A DNA stretch of 63,989 bases, counting the filler, from Folioceros fuciformis (Eukaryota): assembly GCA_049999805.1 (NCBI GenBank). It is 13 parts of 13 records of this genome, joined end to end, with 100 filler letters (N's around TTAATTAATTAA, not from the genome) between each part and the next. Parts side by side here need not be neighbours in the genome. Positions count along the whole stretch, not along the records: positions 39,356 to 54,568 come from JBNGIO010003067.1; 12 more parts are not named here. The stretch is one strand, 5' to 3'. How positions within the stretch are numbered: position 1 is the first letter of the stretch; every line of letters begins with the position of its first letter. Both the position numbers and the translations under genes were made by a program. Positions 44,001-62,841 of the stretch are shown piece after piece. The notes beneath the pieces were generated by a model, which saw only the letters and a list, made by a program, of their open reading frames with translations, was not told the origin of the DNA and did not search any database.

Positions 44001-45836
44001 AACGATACATGTGTCCGTCCACACCTCATGCACATTCAACGCACCGACTCCACGCCAGAGCAGGATACATCACATCTTATAGGTTTTAGTTCTCCCACAA
44101 TCCGACGCGATCCATTTTTCCCTGCGACCTGCTCCAGAGGCCGCAAAATCAGGACGAGGCGCTGGGCACCCATTCATTGATTCGGTACCCATTGGAGCAA
44201 TTGCCCGAATCCTCCCTTCCTCAAAAAGGCATTCACAGTCATGACCATGGCCATGGCCCCAGCCCTAGAGTCAGGACAAGTTAGCGCAGCCTCGGCTCTT
44301 GCAGGCCAATCAGCACTCCGCCTCCAACCTGTACGCCGCATAATGTACATGCTGTCTGTGCGCAGTCGGTCAGTCGTCCACTCGTCAATCACAAGCGGTG
44401 GAGTGTCGGACAAACAGCGTGTTACGACAGCCTGATGCCGCCCGCGTTCCTGGGGAAACCACGTCTCCTCGTCCAGAGGCACCGCTGTTTTCTCATCACC
44501 CTCGTCGGCCGGGCAGGGACAAGCCCAAGGCCAACGCCAACTCACGGCTGCGGGATATTTACATTTGACAACTCGCATCCTCCGTGCAGGATGGGTCGTG
44601 GCAAGTCCTCAGTCTCCCAAACCCAGATACTTGACAAACGTCGGCGGGGTACCACCTGTCTACACAAAATCTTGTGGCCATGGTCCGCACAGTTGGAAAA
44701 CATGAAGCACCGCCTAAGGCTGCCGTTTCAGAGGTAACGTGGCCATGTCCATTTTCATAAACCCTCTTCTTGAGCCGTCCTTAGTTGAGCACTAGCCAGG
44801 CGCTGCAGGGACTGTCTGATGGGAATCTTCGCCATCGCACCGCGTCATTACGCACATGGTAAGATTACCAGGAGGTGATGGTACTGTCGTCCCGACATCT
44901 TCCTCCCGGATCCCGTTCTCTTTGCCGTTCCCGTTCCCATCCCCGTTCCGCGTGAGCCTAGAACGGCCCAACCGGGGGTTCCCTCGAGAGTCGGGAATCC
45001 GGACTCGGGAGTGGTGGCTGGAGTTCACGTCCAGTTCAGTGTGCCTTGTTGGGTGGCGACCACTCGGTTCGAGGTTTGGTTTGTAGCGGCACCTCGGAGC
45101 TCGAATATATGTATGTGGACGAGTGTCACCATGATCCTTAGGCCAAGGTAGATGTGAGATAGTGTATGGGAGTAGGTAACACATAGTGGCTGGAAACGGC
45201 AGCCTCGGGGTACTGACACTGTCAGGCCTCACAGGCCGGGCCAAGGGACCCGCCAGGGGGCCACCCGTTTTCTGCAGCCGTTAAACTAAGTGAGGGTTAC
45301 CATTAAACGTGGATTAAAAAACGCTCCTACACCGACCTCCCTGCGTCCAACCTGCCCACATGGCTCGCCGTCAGTTGCAGGCGGTCCCGCCTTTTTGACA
45401 AATCGGCGGCAACTGGAACATCACTCTCCCCGCACCGCTTCGTCATCGTCCAGTTTGGCTGCTACCTCCGCCATGTACGCGTCTCGCACCTTCCCCGCAG
45501 GTGGCTTCCGCCTGTCCGGTTCCGCCTAGGGTTTGCTGCTTCCCGACTTATACGCATTCCCTCTCTCCATTTCAGATCACTCTGCGACGTCTGACACACT
45601 CTCCGGCTCAGCGGTCTCTCGCTCTCACTTGCGCTTGCTGCTCTCGCTCGTGCCTGTGCCCGGCCTCTTGTTGTGTAGCAATTCAAGGCGTGTGCGTCTG
45701 CGTGTGACTCGACTGTGCGTGTGGCGTCGAATTGAGTCGATCGACATCTGGCGGCCTGAACTTATTTTGAAGGAACTTGATTCCGCGTTTTGGTTTTGCG
45801 ATTGTTCGAAGCTTCCGTAGCGGCAAATCGGCAGAC

Positions 45837-46418
45837 ATGTTTGGATTCGTGAACAAGATTCTCAAGAGTCCGGTGTCGGTGACGAAGTTGAAAGGAGACG
45901 GCCCCGGCTCGGGAAACGGAGTTGTGACTGTGCTGCTGAGCCATGGGGAGGTTCTGGAGTTCCCGTGCAGAATGAAGTGCTCCGGGTTGCTGGCGGCATA
46001 CCCCGGCCACACCGTGTGCCACGCAACCGCACTGGTGCTGCACCAGCAGGTGAAAATGCTCTCCAACGATGCTTATCTCGAGGAAGGCGAGATCTACTTC
46101 CTGCTTGCCAAACCTGAGGCTGGGCCGAAATCGGTGAAGAAGGCGTCCAAGGGGAAGCTTGAGACTTCGTCTTTGCTTACAGAGGAGCGGTCTTCCCGGG
46201 CCGGGCAGCAGTCTCAGGGCAGCTCTTCGGTGAAATTTGTCATCTCGAAACAGTACTTGGCCAAGATTCTGGAGGAGGGGAGCAGGCGCGGAGCGCGTCT
46301 CACGCGGAGTGAGACGAACCCTCAGGCTAAGGCCTTGCAGCCCCTGGCGGTCAGGCGGCTCCAGCCGAGCAACACCTGGTCGGGGCCCCTGGAGAGCATT
46401 GCAGAAGTCGCGTCTTGA
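45837..46418 (+). CDS. DUF4228 / PADRE family protein (single exon)
   Basis: GEVLEF..LLAAYPGHTVC..LEEGEIYFLL, internal VKFVISKQYLAKIL and C-terminal WSGPLESIAE, all typical of this family. ATG at 45837. Confidence 0.85.
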   Translation: MFGFVNKILKSPVSVTKLKGDGPGSGNGVVTVLLSHGEVLEFPCRMKCSGLLAAYPGHTVCHATALVLHQQVKMLSNDAYLEEGEIYFLLAKPEAGPKSVKKASKGKLETSSLLTEERSSRAGQQSQGSSSVKFVISKQYLAKILEEGSRRGARLTRSETNPQAKALQPLAVRRLQPSNTWSGPLESIAEVAS

Positions 46419-49279
46419 GCGGGGTGTTGCTCCGGTTCCGGACTTGGTTTCCTCCGTCGGGCAGGTATTACGTTTCGGAGGGCGTGTGCTTCTTAGCGGG
46501 TTTATCTGCTGTCGCTGCCGACCTTGCATCGGGAATACATCGGCCCTTGGGTACTCTGTTCAGGAGTGGAGGTATCCTTCTCTTTGTTGCTAGAGATTTC
46601 CATGGCCCCGTTCGAGCCTCGCTCTGTTGAGCCTCCTGCCTTGGGTGCCAGGGAGGCGCTTGTCTGCCGTTCGCGGACGCTGTATATCATGGTAGTATTC
46701 TCAGAGTCCCTAGTCTGTTTCCTTTTATGTGGGCAGATCTTTGAGGTAGGTAGTTGCTTACTGTTGCAGGTATGCTTGCCACACACTAGAGGGCTGTGTC
46801 GTATTTATGTCCTTGAAGTCACCAGTGGTGGCGAGAGTCTTGTAGTCGCCTGTCTAGGAGGGATAGCAGCAGGCAGATAGAGAGCAAGAGGAGGAGGAGG
46901 AGGATATGGGCAGCCACGAGCACGGAGTTTGCCGCTCGGATTTAGCAGCGTATGTAGGAAGCCAGGGTTGTACCAGAGGAGGCGGAGTTCGGTTCGAGAG
47001 CACTACTAGCTTGTCGATCTCCTTGAAAGTGTTCGCACGCGGACTACGACACGGTCCTGCGCGACTTAGATGCACGGAGGCCTAGGGAAGTGACTGTATA
47101 ATATAATTTTCATTTTCTGTTGATACCCAGCGCACATACTGAGTGCAGTGGGAACATGGAATTCGGCTGTGACTGAACTTGTAACTTGAGTATCTAGCAA
47201 CACAGTGTGGGAATCATGTGTGCACCACTGCAACAGAGTACCTCGGCTTCCATCTTTACTCCCTTTGTGTCTGCTAGATCCTGCCGAAAGGATACCTGGC
47301 CATGAATTTTGTCTACTTCCCTTGCTTATTCTCTACCCAACGATAGGGCAGCGATGTCGGCTATCTCCAATTCAAATGAAATGTGGATGGTACAGATCGA
47401 TCACACTTGCACGAAACTAGAGTAAGAATGGTGTAATTCCCTCAGAAAGCTACCGAATAATTCGATGAATTCTTCACTCACAGGATGTGTGACTCGTATC
47501 GGCCAATTCCATCGACCGGTAAGTTTGGACTTGCAAAATTTAGTAGTTCAGCGGCGTACATCCCGAGCCGTCGATGCGACCGACAAGCGGTGCGAGTTAG
47601 GGGGGGGGAGTGTTTGGCCATAGCCCACCACAGCGGTTCGTCAATGCAGAATTCTGTAAACGAGTCGTTTGATCGCAAGCCCTCTTTCTCAGATTACGTT
47701 CGTTTAGTTGATTCAACTTTCAGCATTGGCACACCTTATCCCAGCGCGTCGTCATCGGAGAGATTTCAATTTTGGAGGGCCAGTCAGATAGGTAGTCGGC
47801 ACACGATGTTACAAGTTACCGAGCACATATGGTATCCTGTTCCATCCAAGGAGACTAGAATAATCTTCGTCTAGCACCCATGTTCCATCAAGTGGAGTAG
47901 AATGGTCTGCTCCTGCCACAGCTCCTCAGAAATATGCGCAGATATGCGCAGAACTTTCATACGCCATTGGACATCAATACAGTTGGTCGTAACTGAAAAT
48001 ATTTGATAGGGGCAAAAAGTCGCGGGAGTCGTGGATGACTCGACACATGAATGTCAAAGTCCGTCAGCAATCCGCTAGTTTATCCTCGCCAGTATATTCC
48101 CCAATCGTACTCAGTATGCGCGTACACGAAAATGAAAAGATGAACAACAGCATACGATACAATTTCACCAAGGGTTGGATTCAGGCACTCCCGATTCGCC
48201 TACGGGTCATTTTTACTAGCTGGGGTCCCACGGCTCGAGTTTGTCCGCCAACGTGTACGACAAGAAGCACATACGTATAGCAACATTGCCAATCCGAGTT
48301 AATTAAATTTGCATCTCCTCCTCCCTTAAATTGGAGACGACAAGCACCAAGGAATACCATCCATGCTGGGATGCCTTGGGGTGGATCATAGGATAGGGCA
48401 GCAGGGCAGCGTGGTTCGGGGATGGTCAAGCTACTCAAAAGGCAAAATAAAATATCAAGTTATGTTGAAAGAATAAGGTAAAATAGTTAAGATGCATAGA
48501 GGTAATATGACATGGAATGGTCAAGCTATGTACCTCGCTTGAATAACACTAGTTATGTATCTCACTTGAATAATATTACTTTAATTTCTTTATAATTTTA
48601 TTTTTAGATAAATTTTCTATCTTATTTTTTTATAAAGTTTTAACTATGAAACATAATCACACTTATCACTTGAAATTATACAAGAATAGCCTAATTCCAT
48701 AAGGGATAAGTTATGAGATGCCAAAATTATAACTTAGAAACGATGGAATGTAGGTGAATAGTAGCTTCAATGAATACCAGGGATGGTTGGAATTTAATTT
48801 AGTAGCAATGTAACCATTTGATATAATTGAATCATATGCCCACATCAAAATCTTCCATATCTCTTATAAAAAAAATTTATAATTATATTAGAATAATAAT
48901 AAGAAATAGATAAAATGATAAACTAAGTTTACATGGAACTTGACATTAAAATTGTGAGGAAAATCTTTCTTTGAAGTTACTAATGCTAGACCCTAAGATT
49001 AGGTTGCTTGGGCTTTGTTCCGTTTTCTTCCCAAGTGGTGTTCTTGATGCTCATGGGGAAGGTGTCTCATGCCATTATGAGGTGGCTTTTTGCCTTTGTT
49101 CTTTTTCGTTCTTCAGATTGGCAGGGCCTTCAAGAGAAGTCTAGTTGTGCCACTCGGGTTCGGTTGTGTTCTACTAACGCATTGTCACGCAACAATTGAC
49201 CCACTTGGGTTCTTGTCTTCATTCTCCAAATCTACAAATCAAGTAGTTAAAATTAAATTTTGGACCTTCATTTTCTATA

Positions 49280-50135
49280 CCGTATTTGAAAGTTTCATTT
49301 TCAATCAAGTAAACTTTCTTAAACATCTTGACTTAATTGCAGGATTGCGCTACTAGACAAGTGCACCTGCACTAGAAAACTTCATTTCCAATCAAGAAAA
49401 CTTTCATAAAAATACTCACTTAACTATAAGAGTGTACCGGCATAGTTGCACTTGAAAATTTTATTTTCAATCAAGAAAACTTTTAAAATATACCTTCTTA
49501 ACTTTAGAAGTAAGTCGGTCTACCGGCACACATGTACTTGAAAACTTCATTTTCAATCAAGAAAAACTTTCTTAAACATACCTTCTTAACTGCAGGATTA
49601 TGCAAGTCTGCTGGTGCGCCTGCACTTGAAAAGTTCATTTTCAATCAAGAAAATTTTATTAAACATATAGACTTAATTTCAAGGGTGCGTCGATCTATCA
49701 ACACACTCGCAATTTAAAACTTTATTTTTAATGAAGACAACTTTCTTAAACGTACTCACTTAACTCTAGGAGTGCGCCGGTCTATCAGCGCATGTGCACT
49801 TGAGAAAATTTATTTTCAATCAAGAAAACCTTCTTAAACATATTTACTTAACTGCAAGAGAGAACTGGTCTACCGACGCACTCGCACTTGAAAACTTCAT
49901 TTTTTGTCAAGAAAACTTTCCTAAACATATTCACTTAACTACAGAAGTGAGCCAATCTACTACTGCACTCGTACTTGAAAAACTTTATTTTCAATCAAGA
50001 AAACTTTCTTAAACATACTCACTTTAATTCGAGGAGAGTGTCGGTCTACTTGTGCACCCACATTGTAGGAGTGCGCTGGTAGACCAGCGCACTTGGACTA
50101 CAAGAGTGTGATGGTAGACGAGTGTATCTAGACTA
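49280..50135. repeat. Tandem array of an 88-bp unit (9 copies) carrying the 26-bp palindrome, plus 2 extra palindromes
   Basis: TTCATTTTCAATCAAG recurs at about 49293, 49381, 49460, 49546, 49633, 49721, 49809, 49896 and 49984. Each unit carries a decayed GAGTGCGCCGGTCTACCGGCGCACTC. Confidence 0.92.
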
Positions 50136-51495
50136 CTTGTTTTTTAATTTTTGAATTGAGGAATTGAAGCACTAGTTAGTATAGATAAATAAAATGAATA
50201 TGATATATAAGATAAATAAAAGATATAAGATATATAAATTGAATAAATAGACATGTCCACGCACATAATGTTTTCAGAAATTGGTAAAAAGTGGATACAA
50301 AGCTAGGATCATACCAATGGTAGAAAGAGCCAAATGAGCTTTATGGAATCTAACCGTTTTGCTTAGACCTTGTTGCTTCTTAAAAGAAACCTTTTGCGCG
50401 GTCTTTCTTGAGAGTGCGCTCAAGTTGCTTAGACTGTCCAACTTGAGCCAATGGCTCTGGCATCCAAGGTGACCAAGATGGCATTACATGGCCTTTCATC
50501 CAATGTTGGGATCCCTTATTTTATAGGAGGTCCGAATTTTCGTCGCAGAAGAGCCTTGTTGTCTGGATAGGGTGGTATTTGGGCAAGCCCTTACATTTGC
50601 CTTACTTTTGTTAGATGATGTTAGGGATAATCAATAACCATCTTCGTGACTACTTTTACCAGCGGAACTTTGTAGTGGTCTTGTAAAGCTATTTCTTGGC
50701 GGCTGTAATTGTAGAGGGGGGGGGGGGGGGTTCCCCCTATGTTTCACAAGTTCTAGGTGCTAGTATATTACTAGCCATAAAGAAGGCCACTCCTGAGGTG
50801 TGTTCACAGATGCTTACTTGTGGCTCATTAGTCAAAGTGTTGTTATTCAAATTCGGAAGGATTTCTAGTTTCATCTCATTCCTCACCAATTCAAGATTAT
50901 GTTTCTAAGAGGCTGCGAATTGATCGTGTTTGGGGGTTTGATGGTTCTTGAGTCTCACTCAGACTAGATAGCTCTACAGGTAGATGTAGAAAATGCCTAC
51001 AACATAATATACAAGGCAGTTATCTTTGATGAGCTTTTCGGCACTGGTGGGTAGTTGGTGAGCCTCATTCCTTTTGTTTGTTCCTTCTATGGGTCGCCTT
51101 CCATTCTCTACTACTAGTATAACAGGGTCTATGCCTAACGGTTGTATTCCATGAAGCCCGTTTGGCGCACTCTTAAATTTACACCATCCTAGGCACATAT
51201 CCATCTTTAAGCTGGTTTTAAAAAACCGTATTGTTTGGACGTGTGTTGGACATAACCCATAATCATAAATAACTAAAACACCACATGCGTACTGAAACAT
51301 GAAGTAGAAGACTGAAAACGTTTCAGCAAAAATCCAAATCGTCCTTCGAGTGCGCCGGTCTACCAGTGCACTGAACAGTGTGTTTCACTAAAATCAATCT
51401 GGCTATGTGCATGCTATGAATAAAAAAACTTTACCAGTAAAATTTAAATAAAGGCATATTGTACCACAAACTGCAAGCACTTTCAATCTACTTCT

Positions 51496-54400
51496 TTAGA
51501 TCAAGTCATGGACGTCTTGGATGGCCTCAGAATCGACAACTATCTCTACATCTCTAAGACGTTGGCCCTTTGTGTCGCTGAAGTTGTCTCCTTCCACCTC
51601 CAGTACCGAGAAATGTGGATCGTCCACTGTCTGAGGTGGAAGCGTGCCATTCTCATCCCAAATGGTCAGCGCATATAGGTCTTCAGTTGGTCGGTCGTCT
51701 GAGTGCGTAATAACTTCACCTTTCTTTCCCAATAGACTGTAAACCTGCATCCGTCGATCCACGCTACCGTCCGCGCATACTTCCTTGGCCCAAAACTTTG
51801 TGGGCCCATGAGAGAAGGGGTCTGTGCTGATCTCTTCATCAGCGTCTAGCAAAGATCCAAGGCCATTCACTCTCTGCATCATGTAAGTCGTGCATCGTAT
51901 ATCGACGTGCATCGCAACTACATGCCTCCCTCTCTGAAGAGCAGCCTGAAGGAATGATCCGGATCCTGCACAGGCATCCACTACCCAGTCCCCTTCAATC
52001 AAAAACATGTTCACTAGCATCCCCATAAGCCCCAACGGCTTCTAGTATGGGGAGACGACCATCGAATCTGCCGAGTGAAAAAGGTGCTTTTTCACAACAA
52101 CACCATGCCTTATCACTCTCGGCAGTAGAAAACCCTGATTTGCGAATAAGGCTGCTTTGGTGATCTGAGCTTCCAAGTGGACTGCACTACCAACTGTCAG
52201 GTACTCCACAGTCTCCACTGCCCCTACATTCGGCAGAATATTCGTCTTTTCCCAAACCAGTGTCTGTATGGTGCCTTTCTTGCACCACGGCCTAAGTGCC
52301 TCTCTCGCTTGTGAGATCAGGTCAACTCCATGCATAAGCACCCCTCGATAAACATTGCTAGTCGTGCATTCCGAAAACCCCTTGATCATATCTTCAAGTT
52401 CCTCGTTAGTCAACTGCGTGTCGTAATCATGTCGTTGAAGCCTACGAGACAAATCAGCGAACAATAGGGTATAAGGTCTCTTTACCAAAAAACCACTCAT
52501 CTCGAGAACGCTTCACTACATCACTTGATACTTGGTTTTTTGGTTGCTGTTGGACACTCTGAACTCTGACAACCCAGCATCCATGTCGGCGTCCGCTAGC
52601 TTCTGCTTCTCCTCTTCTAACCGCTTTCAGTTCCGTGCTGAGTACACGTAATCCTGGAACGACTTGGGCAACGATTCCAAGTCGTTTATATCTGTAGGTT
52701 TCTGCCAATAAATACATTCGTCAGCAAACTATGTAGCATTCATTCTTCAAAATGGTTAGACTGCACCATTGGCTTGGTCAATGGCAGGAGTGCGCCAGTC
52801 GACCGGCGCACTCTAGCCCATATGAACGGCACAGGCCAAGCGCGGGCTGGAGTGCGCCGGTCTACCGGCGCACTCCAGCCACATGCTGCGCCTAAGCAGC
52901 CAGGATGCTTGGAGTGCGCCGGTAGACCGGCGCACTCCGGCCACAGTCTGGCCCTAGTCCTTCATAAGGGCTGTAGTGCACCGGTAGACCGGTGCACTCC
53001 AGCCACTGACCAAGCCAATCTGGTGAGTGTCCAAGGTTAGTCGAGATTGAAGAAGGAAATAAAAGGAAACTTACCACTTTCGCGAAAGCCGTCTGGAATC
53101 GAAGAAGATTCGCGTCTTCGGTGTGCTTGGGGTAGATCTGTTCGGCTTCTTCGAAGGTCGCGCACTTCAACGCTATGCGAAATGCGTGCTATATCATATG
53201 GATCTTCTTCCTCTTGCCCACCTCTGCGTCCATATCCTTTAGCTGGAGCTTCCCCTGTATGACCTTCTGCGTCACTGCGATCAACATTTCTTCTCCTTTT
53301 GCTCTTGCTGGAACCCCTTGAAAGGCCCTCCAAGGCCTGCCCTGCATTGTCATTACCTTCTTGGTGGACTCGTCAGCAATCGGAGTGCTACTGGAAGCTA
53401 TGCCAGCTTCCCTGGCTTCCTCTTCGCTTTCGCCCGCTTCTTCGTGCCTGTGCTCCCTCCTACTACCTATTCCGGAAGCTCGCTCCTCTCCCACATCTTA
53501 AAGATCATGTCCACGTCCTCCCACAGGACTCCGCTGCACCTTGCCACCCGATATGGCAATGTCTGTCTATCCACCATCTTCTGGACCCAGTCAATATCCC
53601 TTGGGTCACCTGCCTCATCAGTCATCCCCAACAACCTGTACATATTGAATTTCCACTTCACTGGTGGCTTCTTGTCCAGGTCGTGGCTCCTGTAGAAAAT
53701 ATCCAACTCATCATGGATATATCTTACTTGTTTGATGAAGCCCATCCTCTTTCGTTTGTCGGCAAACACATTGTGATCAACAGCAAGGACTCGCATTTCC
53801 TCATTTGTGAGGCCTGCATAAACATGCCCTTCCATCCACTCGCACTTGTCTTCTCCTAGGTACATCTGATGCAGCTTCTGCATAGCTGCAAAGCAATGGT
53901 TGCCCCCAAGCACTCCCATCTGGTACCCCTGTGTTGTTATCTTCTCGAGCAAAACATCCTCCTTCTTGCAAGCTTGTTTCGGATCAATCATGCATAGGAG
54001 AGATAAAATACCTTCCTTCACAGACCCTGTCTGCATTTGCCTGACCAGGCACTTCATCCAAGCTTCGTCAACCTCATGAATCTGGGCATCTGCTGTGATA
54101 TAGCTTGTAGGGTGGAGGATATCCACATGAAGATCGAACAACTGTTCGGGGCGGCTCGTCCTCGAAAGTAGGCCCTTGAGCCTGCCGCCTCTGCTTCCGC
54201 CTCATAGAGGCCTCGTTGGCAGACCCTGTCGACCTGCTCTTCCTCTTCTGTGGTGAAGCTGCAATGACACCACAGCAATTGTTGCAACAGATATTCACGA
54301 CAAGAAACCAGACAGTAAGGAAACCAGACCCGACCACATTGCAGACCGATTAGCAAGATACCCACTTGTGGCTCTTTTTCAAGACCTCGCAAGAGAGGTC

Positions 54401-54568
54401 ATGGCCGTCTTCTTCTTCTTCATGACTGGGGTGCCGGTAGGCCGGAGCACCATCTTCTGCTTCGTTCTGGGGGGCGTGACCTCCACAGGCGATTCCTCCT
54501 CTTCTTCCCGGTCAGACCGTAAGCCTCTTCCACCTTCCATGGCCTCGTTGAGGCTGTCTTCTGTCGAG
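51496..54568 (-). pseudogene. Spliced ParB/Srx-like domain + beta-class N4-C/N6-A DNA methyltransferase fusion (decayed; 5' end lost at gap)
   Basis: Exons 54568-54366, 54258-53075, 52701-51496 with GT-AG introns. ParB-like QIHEVDEAWMKCLVRQM..GGNHCFAA..LTNEEMRVLAVDHN. MTase LLFADL, LVWEKTN, VEYLTVG, PY*KPLGLMGMLV, GDWVVDACAGSGS..AA..GR. Contains in-frame stops and frameshifts. Confidence 0.82.
52788..53000. repeat. Four 26-bp palindromes at 62-bp spacing inside the ParB-MTase intron
   Basis: Copies at about 52788, 52850, 52912 and 52974. 52845-52880 is a perfect 17-bp inverted repeat with a 2-nt spacer. Confidence 0.95.
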
Positions 54569-54908
54569 NNNNNNNNNNNNNNNNNNNNNNNNNNNNNNNN
54601 NNNNNNNNNNNNTTAATTAATTAANNNNNNNNNNNNNNNNNNNNNNNNNNNNNNNNNNNNNNNNNNNNTGCGGTTAATCAGTGCGACATTGGCATGGATT
54701 GGCAGGCTTCTTCCTCAAGCGACATGGTGCCTACGAAAGCACCAGAGTTCATTTCTCAAGGTAGGCCACGACTTCGGTTGAAGATGGGCTTTCGTTTGTT
54801 GAAGTTGATAGTCTGATCTTCGCTGTTCCCGTTTTGCTGCTTTGTTCCTGATGATTCTGAAGGAATTGACATCGACTTCCGATAGTCTCTTGTACGTCTG
54901 AGTCTTCT

Positions 54909-56660
54909 TTGCGAAGCCAGTATCCTTTCACGCTAGCGACCATGAAAATAACACCTCTGAAGCGGAATGAAGATCGCACAATCTTGCACGGGGACTTTGA
55001 TGATTCAAATGCAGAAGGAATTGCGAGTGGACACGGGTTACCAAGAGAATTGACCGGAGAGCGCTTCCAGCCCGAAGCTGAAGCTGGGGATGTCTTGGCC
55101 GTAGACGTAGTCAGGACGACGGGCACATCGTCGCGAAAAACATACAATCTAAAACCATCATCCGAGTCCTTGATTGAAGTTCCTGGAGATCATTGACACA
55201 GTCGGAAGAAAAAAATCTTGACTGTACCTGAGGAAAAGTGTTCTGAGATCCGCATTTCTGCAGATTATCGGAGACTATGTTGTGCAAAGCAGTATCTCAG
55301 ATCCTTAGGAAAACCAGGCTTTCGGGATTTGAGATATCGATTTCTAAACCTATGCAGGACAGAGCAAGAAATGTATTTGCAGACCCTGTTTGATGTCAAG
55401 CGCGCTTTGGATGGACGCTCGATCGTGGTGGCTTTTCTCATTGGATCAGTAAAGATACGCTGTTGTCGGGACGCATTCAAACGAGTTTTTTGCATCGGTG
55501 CGAACAGGTACGAGGCAGCAAAAGAAAGAGCTTTGGATAACATTATGTGGGTGGGCTCTGTCCACGTAGAAAAGCACACCTGGGATCCCGCTATGGCTGC
55601 TTGTGTTTGGATGGATCAATTGTTCTGCCTCCTTGTAGAACACATGCCAAACATTGAAGTGTACCATCTTCCCGACTCGTACACAAAAGGGGAAATTTTT
55701 AGGGAGTGCAAGCAGCAAATGCAACGAGCGGAACAGTACAGTGTGTCTTACTCTTATTTCTGTCAATTGTGGGCTTCACATTTCTACAAGGTGCAAATTC
55801 CAAAGACAAACAGGTTTTTGTTCTGTATAAACTGCGATTACCTGAAAAGAAACATCAGAGCCGAGTCTGATAAGAAGAAACAAGGTATGTGAGCGTGTTT
55901 TTTCAGTTACGTTTCACGTAGGCATATGAAGTGCGCCAGTCAACCGCGCACTGCATTCCATCATTCCCTGGTAAGTGTGCCGGTTGACCGGCACACTTTT
56001 TCTTCCCAATGATGTTGTGAGTGCGCTGGTAGATTGGCGCACTGCCCTTGTTTCGAACCCTTCAGTTGTCATGGTGACTGCGCATTGCTGGGTGTGTGCC
56101 AGTCTACTGGCGCACACCTTCCTCTCCCACTCAAGAAATGAAGGAACTGACTGCTTTGTGGCGGGTGTGTGCCGGTCTATTGGCGCACACCTTCCTCTCC
56201 TACTCAAGAAATGAAGGGACTGACTGCTTTGTGGTGGGTGTGTGCCAGTCTACCGGCGCAAACCTTCCTCTTCCACTCAAGAAATGAAGGGACTGACTGC
56301 TTTGTGGCGGGTGTGCGCCGGTCGTACACTTTTTCCGTATTCTAATGTAAAGTATTTGATGTTTTTTGTAGAGGGCTTTGAATCTGACTTGAAGCTTCAT
56401 CGAAATAGACTGAAGGCAGAGCGCGAGAAGAGTATAAAACATCGGGTCAAATGTTATTGCGACCCCAGAAAGTACATTGGAATATCAGTGGATGGATCAA
56501 CAGAAGACTCACCTGCCCCATTTTGTACGAGTGCCCAAAGATTTAGCGGATGTTGGCCTCGTTGACGTCCATGTAGTAGGGTGTATGGTATACAACAAGA
56601 CTTTGACACCAAAGCTCTTCATCGAGTTCGGCAACATTCGAAACGATGCGAACTTGACAT
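54909..56660 (+). pseudogene. Spliced DDE-transposase-like pseudogene (CxxC..H and DGMDQxK motifs; DUF7869-like)
   Basis: ORFs 54909-55196 and 55218-55892 share a frame (TGA between them). Intron 55885-56371 (GTATGT..TAG). Motifs YHLP, SYFCQLW, IPKTNRFLFCINC, LKLHRN..ER, ISVD[G]MDQQKTHLPHF (frameshifted), HVVGC, DANLT. True start is uncertain. Confidence 0.7.
55930..56330. repeat. About seven copies of the same palindrome, including a 73-bp tandem unit, in the transposase intron
   Basis: GTG(C/T)GCC(G/A)GT-NN-AC(C/T)GGC(G/A)CAC variants at about 55930, 55974, 56019, 56093, 56166, 56239 and 56312. Confidence 0.92.
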
Positions 56661-57827
56661 AAATGGAGAGCAGGAGAGATGATAAATCATAGGGCAATAA
56701 TCAACAATAATTATTCAAAGTAATGGAAAGAGTGCATATTATCTATGCTAGGCACCTCTTCGCTAAAGTGACCTTTCATTAATTAAACTAAACTTAACTA
56801 ACCACAACTAACCGGGGGTAAACCCTAAGCGAGTGAGGTTACCCGTGAACACCCTCTCTTAAGCGAAACGAGCTTAGGAGTTATGACGGGACTAAACACG
56901 GGTTTAGCAAAGAGGGTGAGGACGGCCACGAGGAGAGGATGGGCACGCGAGGCTTAATGAGCAACACTCATCACTCATAGAGGACGTGTGAGCTGGAGGG
57001 AGATGGAGCAGAGAATGAATCTTACATCAGCCTACACAGCGCTCCTCATAGCCATCTTCCTGTGTGTCCAGATCGCGAGGGTGTATACGATGCCTGGGAA
57101 TCGTTCTTCGAAGCGGAGTAAGGAGAGCAGGGAGGCTAGGAGAACTCGCCCTTCTAAGCGTCCAGCAGCAAAGGAGGAATGGGATGAAACCAATGTGGTG
57201 GAGACCAGCTTAATGGTTGGCGGCAGGAAAGTGTTGTTCAACGTGACCTTGTGATGGGCGAAACCTGGGAGAGAAGAAGAGCTCCCAGCGGATACTGGCG
57301 ATGAGACCAGTTTGATGAGGCCGCTACAAGAGGCACATAGACTGCTTGGGCTGCTGAAAATATTGCAGGAAGAAGAGGCAGCAATCGGGGAAAACCAGCG
57401 TACAGGTGATTGGATTAACTTCGAGCTTCATCCACCTGACCAGTTTTTCAAATTGTTGCAGTGTTGTGGTAGCTAACCCTCCCTGTTGCCTGATGGCAAG
57501 CACATAAGAGCACAGAAGGAAGAGCTATATTCCACAATACTGAGGACATGGGCCTCACCCGTAAGTCTTGTTTGCAGTAGGTTAAGCTGCGGGTTTGAAA
57601 TAGGATTGAAATTTTATCAGCCCAAGTGCCTGTATATGCTTCTAATGTTTATGCTTTGGTAGGGCCTTTGTTAGGATGTCTGCTGTGTTATTCTCAGTAG
57701 GCACGTAGAGAATTTTAACTAACCCCCTCGCAGCAGCATCTCTAACATAGTGATGATGGACTTCGATATGTTTTGTCCGAGCGTGGAAGCGGGGATTTGC
57801 AACAAGGGCGATGGCTGATTGATTGTC
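56656..57827. mobile_element. About 1.17-kb insertion (solo-LTR-like) interrupting the transposase-like gene
   Basis: Bounded by TGACA..TGTCA. The transposase reading (..DANLT) appears to resume as VE followed by a GTGAGT donor at about 57830-57842. No clean target-site duplication. Confidence 0.5.
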
Positions 57828-58124
57828 ACAGTAGAGGTGAGTAGGGCCATCNNNNNNNNNNNNNNNNNNNNNNNNNNNNNNNNNNNNNNNNNNNNTTAAT
57901 TAATTAANNNNNNNNNNNNNNNNNNNNNNNNNNNNNNNNNNNNNNNNNNNNAAACATTCACTTACCTTTTCACTAGGGTTGCGTCTCTAGTTTTTAAAAG
58001 GTCACGCCGTTTCAGAATAGATTAAGTTAAGTTGGTTTATTCTTTAATGTACTCTTCTTGATATATACACAATATAATGTAATTGTTGTATGCAATTGAT
58101 TTACACCTTTTTATTAATTTTGTC

Positions 58125-59556
58125 AAGAGGAAGACTGCAACCACCTCTTCGTCCAAGATGCGCAAGAGAAACACAGGTTGTTGTCAAAAACTCACCCGAT
58201 GTTCTTTCTGTTCTCCTGTGTGAAGAAACTAGTATCTTGGGAAGCCACTAACGCTAACATCTTGCCTAACATTGAGAAATGTTTCAGTGGCAGCTTCTTC
58301 ACTGCAAAAGAGGAAGAACAGGATGGCAGGTCCTGTAAGCGAAGCAATTACTCGGCGTAAGCAGAGGCGGAAGGCCCAAGGTCCTACTTGCAAAGAGGAG
58401 CCGCCACGGACAGTGGAGACAGACGCCGAAAGAATGGAGAGAGTTGAGCAACATGAAGACTATTTGAATGCAGTTCGGAGAAAAGCTCATGCCAGACGGA
58501 TTCGATCAACAACGTTTGATCTGCATGTGGACATCCTGCATCCGGCCAGTTAAATTACAGCAGATGCACAAATACGGGAGGTAGATGAAGCGTGGATGAA
58601 GTGCCTAGTCAGGCAGATGCAATCAGGGTCAGTGAAGGAAGGCATTTTGCCTCTCCTTTGCATGATAGATCCCAAATAGGCTTCCAAGAAAGAAGATCAC
58701 AGTGCAACAGTACAAGATGGGAGTGCTTGGAGGAAACCACTGCTTCGCAGCTATGCAGAAGCTATACCAAATGTACCCAGCTGAGGACAAATACGAATGG
58801 ATGGAGGGGCATGTTTATGCAGGACTAACAGATGCGAAAATGCGAGTCCTCGCAATGGATCATAATGTGTATGCCGACAAACGAAAGAGAATGGGCTTCA
58901 TTGAACAAGTTCGATATATCTACGACGAGCTGGATATCTTCTACAGGAAACATGGATTGGATGAGAAGCCCCCCGTGAAGTGGAAATTCAATCTCTACAG
59001 GTTGCTGGGGATGACAGATGAGGCAGGTGACCCTCGGCACACTAACTGGGTGCAAAAGATAGTAGACAGGCAGACATTAGCATATTGGGTGGCCAAGTGT
59101 AGTGGGATCCTGTGGGAGAACGTGGACAGAATATTCAGGATGTGGGAGAGGAGTGAGCTGCCTGAACAAATAGCAGGAGGAAGCTCTGGCACAAAGAAGC
59201 ACGCAAAAGCAAAGAGGAAACCTGGGGAAGCTGGACTCGCTTCTAGTAGTACGCCAATGCAAGACGAGTCTTCGAAGAAGGTTGTAGCAATCAGGACAGG
59301 CCTTGGAGGGCTTTCCAAGGAGTCCCAACAGGTGTTAAAGGCGAAGAGATGCTTATTGCTGTGACGCAGAAGGTTATCCAGGGGAAGCTGGACCTCAAGG
59401 ACATGGACAGAGAGGTGGGCAAGAGGAAAAGGATCCATCTCATCCAACATGCTTTCAAGATGGCTTTAAAGTGCGCAACCTTTGAGGAAGCGGAAGTGTT
59501 GTATCCCAAGCATACGGAAGACGCACATCTCCTCATATTCCAGACTGCAAAAGTGG
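58125..59556 (+). pseudogene. Second, partial copy of the ParB-like(-MTase) gene, ParB exon only
   Basis: Colinear homology with 53075-54366 (DILHPAS, GVLGGNHCFAAMQKL, LAMDHN, WERSELPE, FQTAKV). Ends at the same splice donor (AAAGTG/GTAAG, about 59556) shortly before a gap. Confidence 0.88.
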
Positions 59557-59829
59557 TAAGATTCCACACTCGGGAATGGGTCTTTGTTTTCCATCTTTTG
59601 GAGTGAAAGTGGNNNNNNNNNNNNNNNNNNNNNNNNNNNNNNNNNNNNNNNNNNNNTTAATTAATTAANNNNNNNNNNNNNNNNNNNNNNNNNNNNNNNN
59701 NNNNNNNNNNNNTTTCCTTGTGGCACTGTTAAGGATCATGTGATTTGTGTAACGGAACAACCAAGTGTTTCCTTGTGGCACTGTTAAGGATCATGTGATT
59801 TGTGTAACGGAACAACCTTGTGTTTCCTT

Positions 59830-61434
59830 GTCTGTCCTTAGACACTTCAGTCGCAGGCTAGACTGATTCTCCACAAGGGTGACAAACTTCCGAAACACTG
59901 TCAGAACATCATCCTTTTTCCTCAAAGGATAAACCCATACCTTGCGTGAGCAATCATCTATGAAAGTGACAAAATAGGACGCACCGCCTAACGATACAAT
60001 GGGCATAGGTCCACAGACGTCACTGTGAACCAACTCAAGAGGTTTACTTTTGTGTTTACCTCTTGCTCCATGTGGTGACTTGGTCTGTTTCCCATACAGA
60101 CAGTGCTCACACACGGAGAAATCGGAGAAGTCAAAAGCAGGGACGTAACCAAAACAAGATAGTATCTTCATTCCTTTTTGAGACATATGTCCTAACCGAC
60201 TATGCCACAAGGAAACACTTGCCTGTTCCGTGACACAAATCACATGATCCTTGACAATGGATACCTAAAGTGAGTACAAAGTGCCACACTTCAATCCACG
60301 AGCTAATACAAGAGAACCTTTGGAGATCTTCCAAGAACGATCTCCAAACCAACAATGGTAGCCAGCATCATCCAACTGCCCTGCACTAATCATGTTCTTA
60401 GCCAACTTGGGAACATGCCTAACATCCTTTAGTACGAATGAAGATCCGTTGTCGAACTTCAACTGCACATTACCAACGCCTGCAATCTCGCATGCGTAGT
60501 TATTTCCAAGCCGTACACATCCTTTCCTAGTAGCATCATATGTGCTAAACCACTCTCTATGCGGAGTAACATGGAAAGATGCTCCAGAGTCAATTATCCA
60601 ATTAGAGAATAAGGGACTCTCCACGGCTGTCAGTTGTGCACAATCGGAGGAAGAAGAGATAAGAACATTTCCATCGTCAATAGAATTTACCTCGTTAGGC
60701 TTAGTACTTGGACTTGCTTTGTTGTCGCTTTGCTTCTTCTCCTTTCCTTTGTCCTTCTTGAACTTCTCGCAGTCCTTCCTGATGTGCCCCTTCTTGTGAC
60801 AATGGTAACACTCAACATTGTTACGACTACGAGATTTACTACGGGAAGAACTTCGCTCTTTGTACTTCCCCTTTGAAGTGAACCTTCCTCTCACCATGAG
60901 GGCATTGGAACCTTTCGAAGGTTCCATATTCTTCCTGTTCACCTCCTCTGTTAACAGGCTACCTTCGACATTTACAATGGTAAGACCACTGGCAGGAGTG
61001 GAATTACTCAGAGCTGTACGAAAGGTGTCCCAGCTCTCTGGTAATGTGACCAACAGAAACATAGCTCTCACGGAATCTGGGAACGAGATACCTTGAGATG
61101 AGAGCTAGCTGAAAATGGTATTGAACTCGTTCAGATGATCAGACATCCTCGTCCCTTCCTTCATCTTCAAGTCCACCAGTTGTTTCAACTAGTACACCTG
61201 AGAAGCCGCACTTTGCTTCTCGTACAGGTCACCCAACTTCTGCCATAGCTCGTAGCTTGTGGTCTTGTCTTTCACGTTGAAGTAGACCGACTTCGACAAT
61301 GTTAGCATGATGGTAGACCTAGCAAGCTCATCTAGATCCTGCCACTCATCCTGGGTCATGCTAACAGGTTTCACTCCTAGCAACTTTATGGGCTTGATCT
61401 GCTTCTTCTGTACTAGAACATTATACACTTGTTC
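59830..61434 (-). mobile_element. Ty1/Copia family A fragment: gag, protease, integrase N-half
   Basis: Close match to about 430-2000; ORFs 61189-61428, 60265-61071 (CYHCHKKGHIRKDC, WIIDSGAS) and 59791-60243. Confidence 0.95.
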
Positions 61435-61534
61435 NNNNNNNNNNNNNNNNNNNNNNNNNNNNNNNNNNNNNNNNNNNNTTAATTAATTAANNNNNNNNNN
61501 NNNNNNNNNNNNNNNNNNNNNNNNNNNNNNNNNN

Positions 61535-62841
61535 TCCCATCTGAGGGGAGATCTCACCCTTGGCCACCTGCTGCCCATACCAGGCATTACGTCCTTTGAG
61601 AAGGGTGACGTAAGTATCAGCCAGCAAAGGGCCTGCGAGTTTTTCTGGATCTTCTGAGAGCAAGTGAGTTATGTAGATCATTTCTGACGTGCAGTGTGCG
61701 AAGTACACGGACTTACTGGTGGCACTCTCGTTTGTAAGAGCTGCAACCATTCCTGCGCACCGAAATCTACCTTGTCAGCAGTTTGCCTTGCCATTGCAAC
61801 AAGTAGGCCAGGCGAGGAGAGTAAGCCCCTTGCTATTTACCTGCACCGATGGCATACACATTTTTCAGTCCTCCCATCACCTCATGAGTGACGAGGTCAC
61901 TATTGTCCCAGACTATAAAGTGAGGCTGCCGAAGAAACCTGGCCAGGGGCTTTCTCCATTTCTCGGCACCACATATTCTGGCATTTGCATATTCCTTGTT
62001 GTACACTTCCGCAGCAATATTAGGGCCACCTAGATACAAAATGTTCTCGTCCAACAGACCAGCTGCCACCGAAACAGCATCCAACCCCACGTATCAGTCT
62101 CAGCTAAAATGGTTGGAGCAACTCTACGTGCCTGTGCTAAAAAACGGGGACGACCGCAATTTTTCTTTCACAATCCAAACACTCACTGGCAGCTTGAATC
62201 ATCTGCGTGGGAGTCACAATATGAGGATCCGGATCAAAGGCCGCCTCAACACCCTTAGCCAAGGAAATGACGATAGGTTTAGTCCTCCTCTCACGCCAGT
62301 AGTTGCCGATCTTTTCAAACACGGCACGGGTTTCAGTGGACGGGAGGCCATTGACGACAATGTCCGCATCCCAAACCGCGCCCTGCAAGTCGGTCACAAC
62401 TCTGAGCGGACACAAGGGCGTATCCAGCATGTTTATGCAAAATCCATCCCTCAAAATCTCGTCGGCATAAAGCACGCGGTCTCCCAGCCTCCCTTCCACA
62501 TACTTCAGGTAGGCGCATTTTGCCAGCAGGCGTCGCAACACGTCCTCCCGTGCATTAATAACCTCGAACAGCTTCACAGCCGACGCCCGCTCCAGCTTCT
62601 TCTCCGGCCTGCGCCAGATGCGAATCTGGATCTGCTCCCGCATGTGCCCGTACGCATCCTGCAGCATAGCCAGGAAGACGCTCCCCCACGCGCCCGCCCC
62701 TACTCCCGTGATCCGCACCTGGTCCCCGTCCCCCTTGCCCAGCGTCTGCCTCAGCTCTGCCAGCCGGTCCTCCGCCGTCCCCACTGCGGCCTCAGCTGTG
62801 GCAGCAGCGACGCCATTCCCAATTGGCCCCCCGCTCACCAT
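61535..62841 (-). CDS. GPDHc1: Cytosolic NAD-dependent glycerol-3-phosphate dehydrogenase, 3' truncated by gap
   Basis: Exons 62841-62187, 62062-61841, and 61752 to the gap. Motifs [60 protein letters not shown]. Confidence 0.94.

What the first reader, a model, noticed from the sequence alone, without database searches (positions are those of the whole stretch)
52788..53000. Palindromes with paired substitutions in both arms: parS-like sites or hairpins
Seen: consensus GAGTGCGCCGGT-NN-ACCGGCGCACTC at strict 62-bp spacing. Several variants change both arms symmetrically: AGTGCaCCGGT/ACCGGtGCACT (about 52974), GCGCtGGT/ACCaGCGC (about 50070), GTGtGCCGGT/ACCGGCaCAC (about 55975), GCCaGT/ACtGGC (about 56097). 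Known: ParB dimers load at palindromic parS sites and spread along DNA. Inference: these could be loading sites for the ParB-MTase, transposase-binding sites, or cruciforms homogenised by hairpin-templated repair. Caveats: the ParB arginine patch reads GNHC in both copies, and all paired changes are C>T/G>A at methylatable sites.
Basis: partly seen in the sequence, partly recalled or inferred. Interest (0 to 1): 0.7.

Follow-up and report, generated by a model that had tools for sequence, protein, structure and literature searches.

The report
Hairpin palindrome arrays in transposon introns
A 26-36 base palindrome, repeated in short arrays in the non-coding parts of a many-copy mobile element of a plant-like genome, keeps its two arms matched, probably because one arm gets copied from the other; this is an ordinary kind of feature sitting in an undescribed element.

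Summary
GAGTGCGCCGGT-NN-ACCGGCGCACTC occurs 13 times (up to 3 mismatches) against 0.07 expected.

Three things change the picture:
- The four copies form a ~260-bp foldback (52764-53025; DNA fold -112.9 kcal/mol, z -15.4). It fills an intron-like gap in a degenerate gene for a ParB/Srx-fold domain plus an N6/N4 methyltransferase.
- That gene belongs to a many-copy element. Spacing elsewhere is 35, 44, 46, 73 or 87 bp.
- The window is a chain of contigs, so the putative transposase may not be adjacent.

Paired changes are in modest excess: 6 symmetric against 11 single-arm in nine well-kept copies, with 1.7-2.2 expected. One pair is an A/T transversion. The decayed 87-bp array shows no excess. 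The 2-bp core occurs as CT and as its inverse AG.

Best reading: these are hairpin-capable repeat modules of a mobile element. Deamination mutates their arms, and arm-to-arm copying (template switching) re-matches them. A role as a protein-binding site is only inferred. Specific parS-like ParB loading is not supported, though not excluded.

The parts
52764..53025 (.). Foldback of about 260 bp that contains the four palindromes spaced 62 bp apart. Arms 52768-52877 and 52910-53019, centre 52893/52894.
   Evidence: The arms are 110 nt and 82% complementary. Mirrored matches are 52 of 60 palindrome positions and 45 of 80 other positions. Spacers match better mirrored (20/32 by eye) than direct (8-10/32). 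The DNA fold is -112.9 kcal/mol against -54.0 +/- 3.8 for shuffles, z -15.4.
52786..52815 (.). Palindrome unit 1. Core CG; one single-arm change (G>A in the left arm).
52848..52877 (.). Palindrome unit 2. Perfect, with arms extending to 17 nt (52845-52880); core CT.
   Evidence: As single-stranded DNA the hairpin is -23.1 kcal/mol, z -9.9.
52910..52939 (.). Palindrome unit 3. Core AG. Over the 28 nt 52849-52876, unit 3 (52911-52938) is the exact reverse complement of unit 2, core included.
52972..53001 (.). Palindrome unit 4. Paired CpG change (GCACC / GGTGC); core AG.
   Evidence: The hairpin is -16.5 kcal/mol.
52702..53066 (-). Intron-like gap in the ParB/Srx-MTase gene (donor GTAAGT at about 53066, acceptor CAG at about 52702). 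The foldback fills most of it.
   Evidence: tblastn with relatives aligns domain 2 down to 53060 and the MTase from 52431. The Chara relative has about 97 residues between them, against 647 bp here. Splice signals were read. This is inference; there is no RNA evidence.
53476..54162 (-). ParB/Srx-fold domain with motif GGNHC. The ORF spans 53467-54201.
   Evidence: AF2 pLDDT 84.8. Foldseek's top hits are Noc, ParB, Srx, KorB and PadC, best E 2.5e-3. VIA gives Z 11.1, rmsd 2.2 A over 95 residues to M. xanthus ParB. No Pfam hit.
51496..52512 (-). Degenerate N6/N4-type DNA methyltransferase part. It has an in-frame TAG at 52039-52041 and a frame change near 52500.
   Evidence: PF01555 E 1.5e-5, 25.5 bits, below the 26.7 cut-off. 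Relatives P0013, P0002 and P0031 pass the cut-off. tblastn aligns 52431-51793. ORFs.
51346..51375 (.). Single palindrome in the region 3' of the MTase; three single-arm changes.
   Evidence: The hairpin is only -5.5 kcal/mol, z -1.1.
51161..51172 (-). Lone half-site close to the inferred end of the many-copy segment.
   Evidence: In one search, loose ends lie before 51121 with unlike flanks (agreement 0.45), and 51172 reads T in all laid contigs of X1 and X2.
50067..50096 (.). Palindrome with a paired change (GCGCTGGT / ACCAGCGC), core AG. It is the middle of three units 35 bp apart (50032, 50067, 50102).
49286..50024 (.). 87-bp tandem array, about 8-9 units. Each unit holds a decayed palindrome between conserved AT-rich spacers.
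   Evidence: There is no excess of paired changes (5 observed, 5.0-5.6 expected).
55893..56370 (+). Intron-like gap (GTATGT ... TAG) of the + strand ORF. Palindromes fill it: 55927 (one-base deletion in the right arm), 55971 (perfect, two paired changes), 56017, the 73-bp array at 56090/56163/56236, and a truncated copy at 56311.
55197..55892 (+). It lies on a different contig piece (54669-57851).
   Evidence: No Pfam hit. No sequence relatives found. The Atlas gives unnamed eukaryotic clusters at 0.97. The downstream frame 56438-56662 has weak DUF7869 leads: Pfam E 0.085 and Atlas 0.93.
58669..59364 (+). Second ParB/Srx-like copy, 78% amino-acid identity, on another contig piece. That piece ends before the place where the palindromes would lie.

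Best explanation
The palindromes are a hairpin- or cruciform-capable repeat module of a mobile-element family. Each has 12-17 bp arms around a 2-bp core. The module has been amplified into short arrays in the non-coding parts of the element: two intron-like gaps, the region 3' of the methyltransferase, and an older flanking array. The element is many-copy and degenerate, sits in a land-plant-like genome, and carries a ParB/Srx-fold plus N6/N4 methyltransferase gene.

The arms are CpG/CHG-rich and mutate mostly by C>T/G>A. While a copy can still fold, one arm is occasionally used as the template for the other (intra- or intermolecular template switching, that is hairpin-templated correction). 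This turns a one-arm change into a paired change and can invert the 2-bp core (CT to AG). Once several mismatches accumulate the hairpin is lost and both arms decay independently, as in the 87-bp array.

Shown here: the module, its arrays, the foldback, its location, the many-copy status, the excess of paired changes and the two core orientations.

Inferred: the template-switch mechanism itself. Also inferred is that the module serves the element as a dyad-symmetric site for a dimeric element-encoded protein. I put this last step at roughly one in three.
For: - Enrichment and clustering. 13 matches against 0.07 expected. 20 of 25 loose matches lie within 49341-56265, and none of the rest is palindromic.
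- Many diverged copies of the host element. 829 contigs of run X1 were laid on 50030-54568 at 80% likeness or more. Only 92 are 99% or more alike. The flank 50043-51162 is covered by contigs with 0 differences.
- Array turnover. Joints in other copies join palindromes to unrelated spacers of various lengths (tables 5 and 5c).
- Folding. The foldback has z -15.4. Well-kept single units fold at -12.6 to -23.1 kcal/mol (z -4.8 to -9.9). Decayed ones fold at -1.6 to -5.7 (z +0.9 to -1.1).
- Paired changes, all 19 copies. 15 symmetric, 55 single-arm, 2 asymmetric doubles. Re-pairing arms gives a mean of 6.7 (P 0.0003). Conditioning on the number of changes per arm gives a mean of 8.6 (P 0.009).
- Paired changes, nine well-kept copies with one representative of the 73-bp array. 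6 symmetric against 11 single, with 1.7 and 2.2 expected (P 0.005 and 0.001).
- One pair is an A>T/T>A transversion.
- Core orientation. CT 11, AG 6, CG 1, CA 1, TG 1 of 20. Copies 51346, 55927 and 56017 share the asymmetric right-arm end CACTG, so they have the same arm orientation, yet carry CT, CA and AG.
- Relative conservation. In the 62-bp set the palindromes are 84% alike and the spacers 38%. This is despite four-fold denser CpG in the palindromes, with CpG o/e 1.13 against 0.43.
- Published mechanism. Template switching between short inverted repeats homogenises arms and inverts spacers of 2-5 bp when arms exceed 9 bp (PMC8604942, passages read; PMC8794818, abstract start seen in the listing).
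Against: - The sample is small. There are six paired events in four copies, all from one window. With 54425 dropped and the decayed copies kept, the conditional test is only P 0.066.
- The 87-bp array shows no excess.
- Copies are related by descent, so the events are not fully independent.
- Site mutabilities were estimated from the same copies that were tested.
- The CT/AG flips inside the 62-bp set are explained by the foldback itself. Only one case (56017 against 51346) argues for inversion of the core alone, and it rests on a shared G>C that could be convergent.
- Paired changes could equally come from founder palindromes made afresh by inverted duplication.
- Nothing here shows binding, transcription or any benefit to the element.
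- Element ends, TIRs and TSDs were not found. Contig adjacency is uncertain.
Confidence: 0.5

Rival explanations
1. Independent methyl-cytosine deamination plus shared descent only. The arms mutate separately at a few hot CpG/CHG sites, and the paired changes are coincidences multiplied by array duplication. No arm-to-arm copying occurs and there is no constraint.
For: - 57 of 89 arm changes are C>T or G>A.
- 4 of the 6 paired events in well-kept copies are at the CGCCGG core.
- The 87-bp array shows exactly the expected number (5 against 5.0-5.6).
- Significance weakens when doubtful copies are dropped (P 0.066).
Against: - The paired A>T/T>A transversion and the paired outer G>A.
- 6 observed against about 2 expected in well-kept copies.
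- The palindromes are far better kept than their CpG-poor spacers in the 62-bp set.
Confidence: 0.2
2. parS-like loading or recognition sites for the element's own ParB/Srx-methyltransferase. The protein binds the dyad as a dimer and methylates or spreads from there.
For: - The N-domain has the ParB CTP-binding-domain fold (Z 11.1).
- The gene and the sites travel together, with the sites inside the gene's own intron-like gap.
- The family fuses this domain to an N6/N4 MTase in Chara, Adiantum and Riccia proteins.
Against: - The arginine box is GGNH(S/C) in 22 of 22 aligned members or near it (G99 and H102 nearly invariant, no Arg). Canonical CTP clamping is therefore unlikely.
- Residues 154-244 gave no confident ParB HTH match.
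- The sites are 26-36 bp and unlike parS.
- For a sequence-specific reader, a second matching change does not restore a lost contact, so paired changes are not what selection for binding predicts.
- This copy of the gene is dead: a TAG, a frame change, and motif IV unreadable.
Confidence: 0.1
3. RNA-level element. The arrays are transcribed within introns, and the long foldback or local hairpins yield small RNAs or bring splice sites together. Pairing in the RNA is then what is conserved.
For: - Both well-kept arrays fill intron-like gaps on the sense strand of ORFs.
- The foldback would give a stem of roughly 125 bp.
- By my own tally of the table, 8 of 10 single-arm transitions in well-kept copies leave a G-T(U) wobble on the sense strand.
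- Rfam gives only hairpin look-alikes: mir-1269 at 50.3 bits against a gathering score of 100.
Against: - No Rfam family is reached.
- Other copies of the palindrome lie outside any ORF: 49286-50136 and 51346.
- Transcription-linked C>T bias also predicts the wobble tally, and that tally is not significant.
- The genes are degenerate.
Confidence: 0.12
4. Binding or crossover sites of the element's recombinase or transposase.
For: - Dyad geometry with an asymmetric 2-bp core.
- A half-site about 40 bp and a full site about 225 bp from the inferred end of the many-copy segment.
- A decayed array at 49286-50136 that could be a sub-terminal repeat block.
Against: - No recombinase or recognisable transposase domain was found.
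- Most well-kept sites are internal.
- No TIR partner exists in the window.
- Spacing is not helically phased (35, 44, 46, 62, 73, 87 bp).
Confidence: 0.08

Closest known systems
Quasi-palindrome correction, i.e. template switching between short inverted repeats (Ripley model; yeast survey PMC8604942; RNA-hairpin study PMC8794818)
   Same: Arms longer than 9 bp with a 2-bp spacer. Changes appear on both arms so that pairing is kept. The spacer is found in both orientations. The inverted repeat is better kept than its surroundings.
   Different: Here the process is inferred from about 20 paralogous copies in one window, not from dated events on a tree. The copies sit in arrays inside a mobile element, and methyl-C deamination supplies most of the input mutations.
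Foldback-type elements and sub-terminal repeat blocks of DNA transposons (Drosophila FB, plant foldback MITEs, CACTA En/Spm TnpA motifs in tail-to-tail pairs; all recalled, not checked in a call)
   Same: Long inverted arms built from short repeated units. Repeated short motifs in non-coding parts of a transposon. A many-copy family.
   Different: No TSD or terminal inverted repeat was found. Most units are internal, inside intron-like gaps. No Tnp2/TnpA-type or Mutator-type protein was detected.
Bacterial parS/ParB (and Noc/NBS, KorB/OB) systems
   Same: A ParB N-domain fold is encoded next to palindromic sites.
   Different: The organism is a eukaryote. The arginine box is replaced by GGNH(S/C). 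The domain is fused to a DNA methyltransferase. The sites are longer and unrelated in sequence, and occur in tandem arrays. No ParA was seen.
Transposon-borne DNA methyltransferases of eukaryotes, and phage ParB-methylase loci (Iyer et al. 2016, PMC4738411, passages read)
   Same: A prokaryote-type N6/N4 MTase with a ParB-type module inside a eukaryotic repeat family.
   Different: The passages I read describe a ParB-type HTH fused to a chlorophyte-type Dam. They do not describe this ParB/Srx N-domain family in streptophytes and marine invertebrates. No cis sites are described there.

Membership tests
parS centromere-like site with cognate ParB | A ParB N-terminal domain fold encoded by the element | tested here: met
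   VIA Z 11.1, rmsd 2.2 A, 95 residues aligned to M. xanthus ParB. Noc, KorB, PadC and Srx follow. Foldseek's best E is only 2.5e-3.
parS centromere-like site with cognate ParB | The conserved GxxRxxA arginine box that binds CTP | tested here: not met
   The motif reads GGNHC in both window copies and GGNHS or similar in relatives. G99 and H102 are nearly invariant, and there is no Arg.
parS centromere-like site with cognate ParB | A ParB helix-turn-helix domain that reads parS | tested here: inconclusive
   Residues 154-244 match nothing above Z 3 on their own. One ParB-parS chain aligns across 21-244 at Z 6.9 with rmsd 5.6 A.
parS centromere-like site with cognate ParB | A 16-bp parS-type palindrome bound specifically by the protein | not testable with these tools
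   The sequence and length differ (26-36 bp, 2-bp core). Binding needs a bench assay.
Sub-terminal transposase-binding repeats of a TIR transposon | The motif is concentrated within a few hundred bp of both element ends, beside TIRs and TSDs | tested here: inconclusive
   One inferred boundary lies near 51121-51172, with a half-site at 51161 and a full site at 51346. The other end is not in the contig. No inverted partner exists in the window.
Sub-terminal transposase-binding repeats of a TIR transposon | A recognisable transposase encoded by the element | tested here: inconclusive
   There are no Pfam hits at E 0.01 or better. Weak DUF7869 leads only: E 0.085 and Atlas 0.93. No relatives were found. 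The single-sequence model is unusable at pLDDT 38.
Foldback element / MITE | Long inverted arms made of repeated sub-units | tested here: met
   Arms 52768-52877 and 52910-53019, 82% complementary, each with two palindromes. Fold z -15.4.
Foldback element / MITE | A target-site duplication at the ends | tested here: not met
   The flanks read ...GACTG | CACCA...TGGTG | AGTGT... No matching direct repeat was seen.
microRNA or hairpin RNA gene (Rfam) | Reaches a family's gathering score | tested here: not met
   The best is mir-1269 at 50.3 bits against 100. All five matches are below threshold.
Helitron 3' hairpin | A GC-rich hairpin just upstream of a CTRR end, in an element with Rep/helicase | not tested
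   No Rep/Hel ORF was noticed among the ORFs of 44000-63989, but no dedicated search was run.

The most novel reading that the evidence does not exclude
A eukaryotic mobile-element family, with relatives in charophytes, ferns, liverworts and some marine invertebrates, carries a bacterial-type ParB/Srx-methyltransferase. That protein recognises the element's own palindromic or cruciform sites and marks the element's DNA with 6mA or 4mC. The palindromes would then be the cis half of a self-marking system imported from phages or plasmids. The arm matching would be kept because the protein reads structure (a cruciform) rather than sequence.
Probability: 0.07. Interest if true: 0.8.

Novelty: new member of a known kind. 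Interest (0 to 1): 0.35.

Why it matters
On its own this is an ordinary feature: repeated palindromic modules in the non-coding parts of a transposon. Their paired changes are a neat but small natural example of arm homogenisation in short inverted repeats on a background of methylation-driven decay.

It matters more as a pointer. The host element carries an undescribed ParB/Srx-fold plus N6/N4 DNA methyltransferase family that is patchily spread in streptophytes and marine invertebrates. Its only conspicuous non-coding features are these sites. If an intact copy exists, the pair (protein, palindrome) is a directly testable candidate for a transposon that modifies its own DNA.

Tried and rejected
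- Exact-pattern scans for the palindrome, with transitions allowed at the CGCCGG core. Viral contigs gave 0. Metagenome contigs gave 4, all unrelated perfect hairpins in other sequence contexts. No extra copies were gained.
- Whole genome.
- Laying runs. One call only. It gave many diverged contigs and joints but no per-copy arm pairs. Of 987 differences only 40 were shown, none inside the palindromes. No RNA holder was listed, and nothing of the run guessed to be RNA (X4) was laid.
- Protein searches:
  - ParB-like ORF, longer proteins: none.
  - + strand ORF, longer and near lengths: none.
  - PDB profile search with A1: none.
  - Viral contigs relatives of the ParB-like ORF: the alignment query was unusable, and the single protein gave none.
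- Single-sequence structure of the + strand ORF: pLDDT 38, not used.
- Rfam: only sub-threshold miRNA-hairpin look-alikes.
- A second palindrome seen in loose ends of other copies (CCGTAATGT...ACATTACGG) is absent from the window.
- TIR search for the segment end 51100-51420 against the window: only the palindromes match.
- Literature:
  - The two 12-mers occur only in two unrelated primer or guide lists.
  - 'DUF7869' is in no paper of the library.
  - Nothing I read describes this ParB/Srx-MTase family or its sites (searches; passages).
- A CRISPR-like reading (30-nt repeat plus 32-nt spacer) was rejected. The organism is a eukaryote, there are no cas genes, the spacers are partly related in mirror image, and the other arrays have conserved spacers.
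- 14853-14974, a CCGGTAGCC repeat, is a coding repeat unrelated to the motif.
- 54425-54454 is a doubtful member: 8 + 8 of 24 positions, inside an ORF.
Full report
**What the window is.** The window is eukaryotic and looks like a land plant. One ORF (45771-46418) is a PADRE-domain protein (PF14009, E 9e-20). Copia-type gag/integrase/RT pieces fill 57642-63989 (by reading). There is a (TAAACCC)7 run at 21673. The window is also a chain of contigs. Twelve joins of the form N44-TTAATTAATTAA-N44 cut it into pieces. The finding lies in piece 39356-54568. Adjacency of these pieces is therefore not established. No whole genome is held.

**The observation.** The 18-nt core GCGCCGGTNNACCGGCGC matches 13 times at up to 3 mismatches against 0.07 expected, and 0 of 100 shuffles reach 13. 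All matches lie between 49774 and 56259. Four copies start at 52792, 52854, 52916 and 52978, exactly 62 bp apart. A looser scan of every possible centre gave 25 rows. Twenty lie between 49341 and 56265, and five elsewhere are not palindromic.

**Anatomy.**
- The full palindrome can reach 17-nt arms (GGCTGGAGTGCGCCGGT-CT-ACCGGCGCACTCCAGCC, 52845-52880). As single-stranded DNA it folds at -23.1 kcal/mol (z -9.9).
- The four units at 62-bp spacing are not a simple direct array. Arms 52768-52877 and 52910-53019 are 82% complementary.
  - Unit 3 is the exact reverse complement of unit 2, including the core (CT against AG).
  - The outer flanks and the spacers match in mirror image: 45 of 80 non-palindrome positions.
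  - Direct comparison of spacers gives only 8-10 of 32.
  - The whole 52764-53025 folds as one long hairpin: -112.9 kcal/mol, shuffles -54.0 +/- 3.8, z -15.4.
- Elsewhere the same module is spaced differently:
  - 87 bp: 49286-50024, decayed palindromes with conserved AT-rich spacers.
  - 35 bp: 50032, 50067, 50102.
  - 44 and 46 bp: 55927, 55971, 56017.
  - 73 bp: 56090, 56163, 56236, plus a truncated copy at 56311. Units are 91-94% alike throughout.
- The strict 62 bp is therefore local, and the spacings share no helical phase.

**Context.**
- On the minus strand, tblastn with distant relatives places three parts: a first domain at 54162-53476, a second helical domain at 53347-53060, and a methyltransferase part at 52431-51793.
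- The stretch between the last two is about 350 bp longer than in the Chara relative. It starts with GTAAGT (about 53066) and ends with CAG (about 52702). The foldback fills most of this intron-like gap.
- The first domain has no Pfam hit. A 22-sequence alignment gave a confident model (pLDDT 84.8). Foldseek's best matches are all Noc, ParB, sulfiredoxin, KorB or PadC, best E 2.5e-3. VIA-align gives Z 11.1, rmsd 2.2 A over 95 residues to the CTP-binding N-domain of M. xanthus ParB.
- The ParB box that should read GxxR reads GGNHC in both window copies and GGNHS or similar in relatives. The C-terminal helices (154-244) match nothing convincingly.
- The methyltransferase part hits PF01555 just below its cut-off (25.5 against 26.7 bits). 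Relatives pass it.
- This copy is dead. It has an in-frame TAG at 52039-52041 and a frame change near 52500. Where relatives read IADAPYG (motif IV), this copy reads FADLSRR.
- Relatives are few: 33 at E 1e-3 or better among 1.84 billion representatives, the best at 41% identity. All are unnamed. They come from Chara braunii, Adiantum nelumboides, Riccia sorocarpa, Saccoglossus kowalevskii and Lineus longissimus.

**A many-copy element.** Contigs of three runs of one sample were laid on 50030-54568 at 80% likeness or more. Run X1 gave 829 contigs, of which only 92 are 99% or more alike and 306 are under 90%. The stretch 50043-51162 is covered by contigs with no differences at all. Loose ends with unlike continuations lie before 51121, which marks one boundary of the repeated segment. 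A lone half-site (51161-51172) and one full palindrome (51346) lie just inside it. Joints in other copies link a palindrome to unrelated spacers of various lengths, and to a second palindrome type absent from the window. The arrays therefore turn over quickly while the module persists. I found no terminal inverted repeat or target duplication, and the other end is outside the contig.

**The other ORF.** The + strand ORF 55197-55892 continues, after an intron-like gap (55893-56370, GTATGT...TAG) that is itself filled with palindromes, into 56371-56662 with a frameshift. It has no Pfam family and no relatives by word-seeded search. It has only weak leads to DUF7869: Pfam E 0.085, and Atlas 0.93 for the downstream frame with 0.97 to unnamed eukaryotic clusters. 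'Transposase' is therefore a guess.

**Paired changes against a null.** I compared each arm (12 core positions) with the consensus in 19 gapless copies. Copy 55927 was left out for a one-base deletion and 56311 for truncation.
- There are 15 symmetric double changes, 55 single-arm changes and 2 unlike doubles. Of the 89 arm changes, 57 are C>T or G>A.
- Re-pairing left arms with other copies' right arms gives a mean of 6.7 symmetric (P 0.0003).
- A stricter null keeps the number of changes per arm and draws positions by pooled site mutability. It gives 8.6 (P 0.009).
- Keeping only one of the three 73-bp units gives 13 against 5.9 and 7.5 (P 0.001 and 0.015).
- Also dropping the doubtful 54425 gives 11 against 5.7 and 7.3 (P 0.007 and 0.066).
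- The signal sits in the nine well-kept copies: 6 symmetric and 11 single, against 1.7 and 2.2 expected (P 0.005 and 0.001).
- The seven decayed units (six of the 87-bp array plus 50032) show none: 5 against 5.0 and 5.6.
- The six events are C9T (50067), G7A (52972), G1A and C6T (55971), and A2T and G10A (56090). A2T is a transversion on both arms and is present in all three full 73-bp units. Deamination cannot make it.
- In the 62-bp set the palindromes are 84% alike and the spacers 38%. This holds although the palindromes have four times the CpG density, with CpG o/e 1.13 against 0.43 (window 0.62).

**The core dinucleotide.** Among the 20 copies the core is CT 11, AG 6, CG 1, CA 1 and TG 1. 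CT and AG are reverse complements, as are CA and TG, and CA/TG are what CpG decay of CG gives. Inside the 62-bp set the foldback itself explains the flip. Copies 51346, 55927 and 56017 share an asymmetric right-arm end (CACTG rather than CACTC), so they lie in the same arm orientation, yet they carry CT, CA and AG. This is one hint of core-only inversion.

**Reading.** Paired, pairing-preserving changes are not what selection for a sequence-specific dimeric protein predicts, because a second matching change does not restore a lost contact. They are what a structure, or a copying process between the arms, predicts. Template switching between short inverted repeats is a documented mutational process. 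It homogenises arms and inverts short spacers when arms exceed 9 bp (PMC8604942, passages read; PMC8794818, only the start of the abstract seen). It fits four things seen here:
- the excess of paired changes;
- the transversion pair;
- the two core orientations;
- the loss of the effect once hairpins can no longer form (decayed units fold at -1.6 to -5.7 kcal/mol, z about 0).

I therefore commit to this: the palindromes are hairpin-capable modules of a mobile element, mutated by deamination and re-matched by arm-to-arm copying. Whether the element uses them as sites for a dimeric protein, as RNA hairpins in its introns, or not at all is not shown. I rate a protein-site role at about one in three. 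The specific ParB-loading idea I rate at about one in ten, because the fold is right but the arginine box and a readable HTH are missing.

**Comparison and novelty.** The closest process is quasi-palindrome correction. The closest structures are foldback elements and sub-terminal repeat blocks of DNA transposons (recalled). Membership in parS/ParB fails on the arginine box and is untestable for binding. Membership among MITEs fails on the missing TSD. No Rfam family is reached. The motif is not in print in the library searched. I read nothing that describes this ParB/Srx-MTase family or its sites. Supplements were not opened. The palindromes are a new member of a known kind. The host element may be the more interesting object.

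**Limits.**
- The evidence comes from one window of about 20 related copies.
- Site rates were estimated from the same data that were tested.
- There are no per-copy data from the rest of the genome.
- No RNA, methylation or binding data were available.
- Contig adjacency is uncertain.

Noticed in passing
window 9712-62961 (12 places; for example 54569-54668): The window is a chain of contigs joined by N44-TTAATTAATTAA-N44 linkers. Neighbouring pieces need not be neighbours in the genome.
   Followed up: partly
window 51496-54201 (-) and 58669-59364 (+): An undescribed eukaryotic family: a ParB/Srx-fold N-domain (GGNH[S/C] in place of GxxR), a helical domain and an N6/N4-type DNA methyltransferase. 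It is many-copy here. Unnamed relatives occur in Chara, Adiantum, Riccia, Saccoglossus and Lineus. The window copy is broken by a TAG at 52039-52041 and a frame change near 52500, and motif IV is unreadable.
   Followed up: partly
runs laid on window 50030-54568: Run X3, from the same sample as X1 and X2, shows a strong excess of C>T (165) and G>A (276) places. Many G>A are at 100% only in X3, as a conversion-treated (bisulfite-like) library would show. It might carry methylation information for this element.
   Followed up: no
other genomic copies, seen as loose ends behind window 52943: In other copies the palindrome is followed by a second, different palindrome (CCGTAATGT-N5-ACATTACGG). It does not occur in the window.
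   Followed up: partly
window 56438-56662 (+) against 56224-56565 (+): The + strand ORF changes frame near 56490. The continuation reads ...MDQQKTHLPHF... and gives the only (weak) family lead, DUF7869.
   Followed up: partly
window 21673-21721: Seven copies of TAAACCC, the plant-type telomere unit, lie inside the window.
   Followed up: no
window 45771-46418 (+): ORF with a PADRE domain (PF14009, E 9e-20). It is the main clue that the genome is a land plant or close to one.
   Followed up: no
window 50717-50733: A run of about 17 G lies in the low-copy stretch between the 87-bp array and the many-copy segment.
   Followed up: no
window 49286-50024: The spacers of the 87-bp array are AT-rich (GC 0.23) and carry their own small inverted repeat (GAAAA-CTTCA-TTTTC). 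The palindromes have decayed while these spacers are fairly conserved among units in TRF's gapped alignment (74% matches); a gapless count over four units gave spacers 0.56 and palindromes 0.63. In the 62-bp set the palindromes are far better kept than the spacers.
   Followed up: partly
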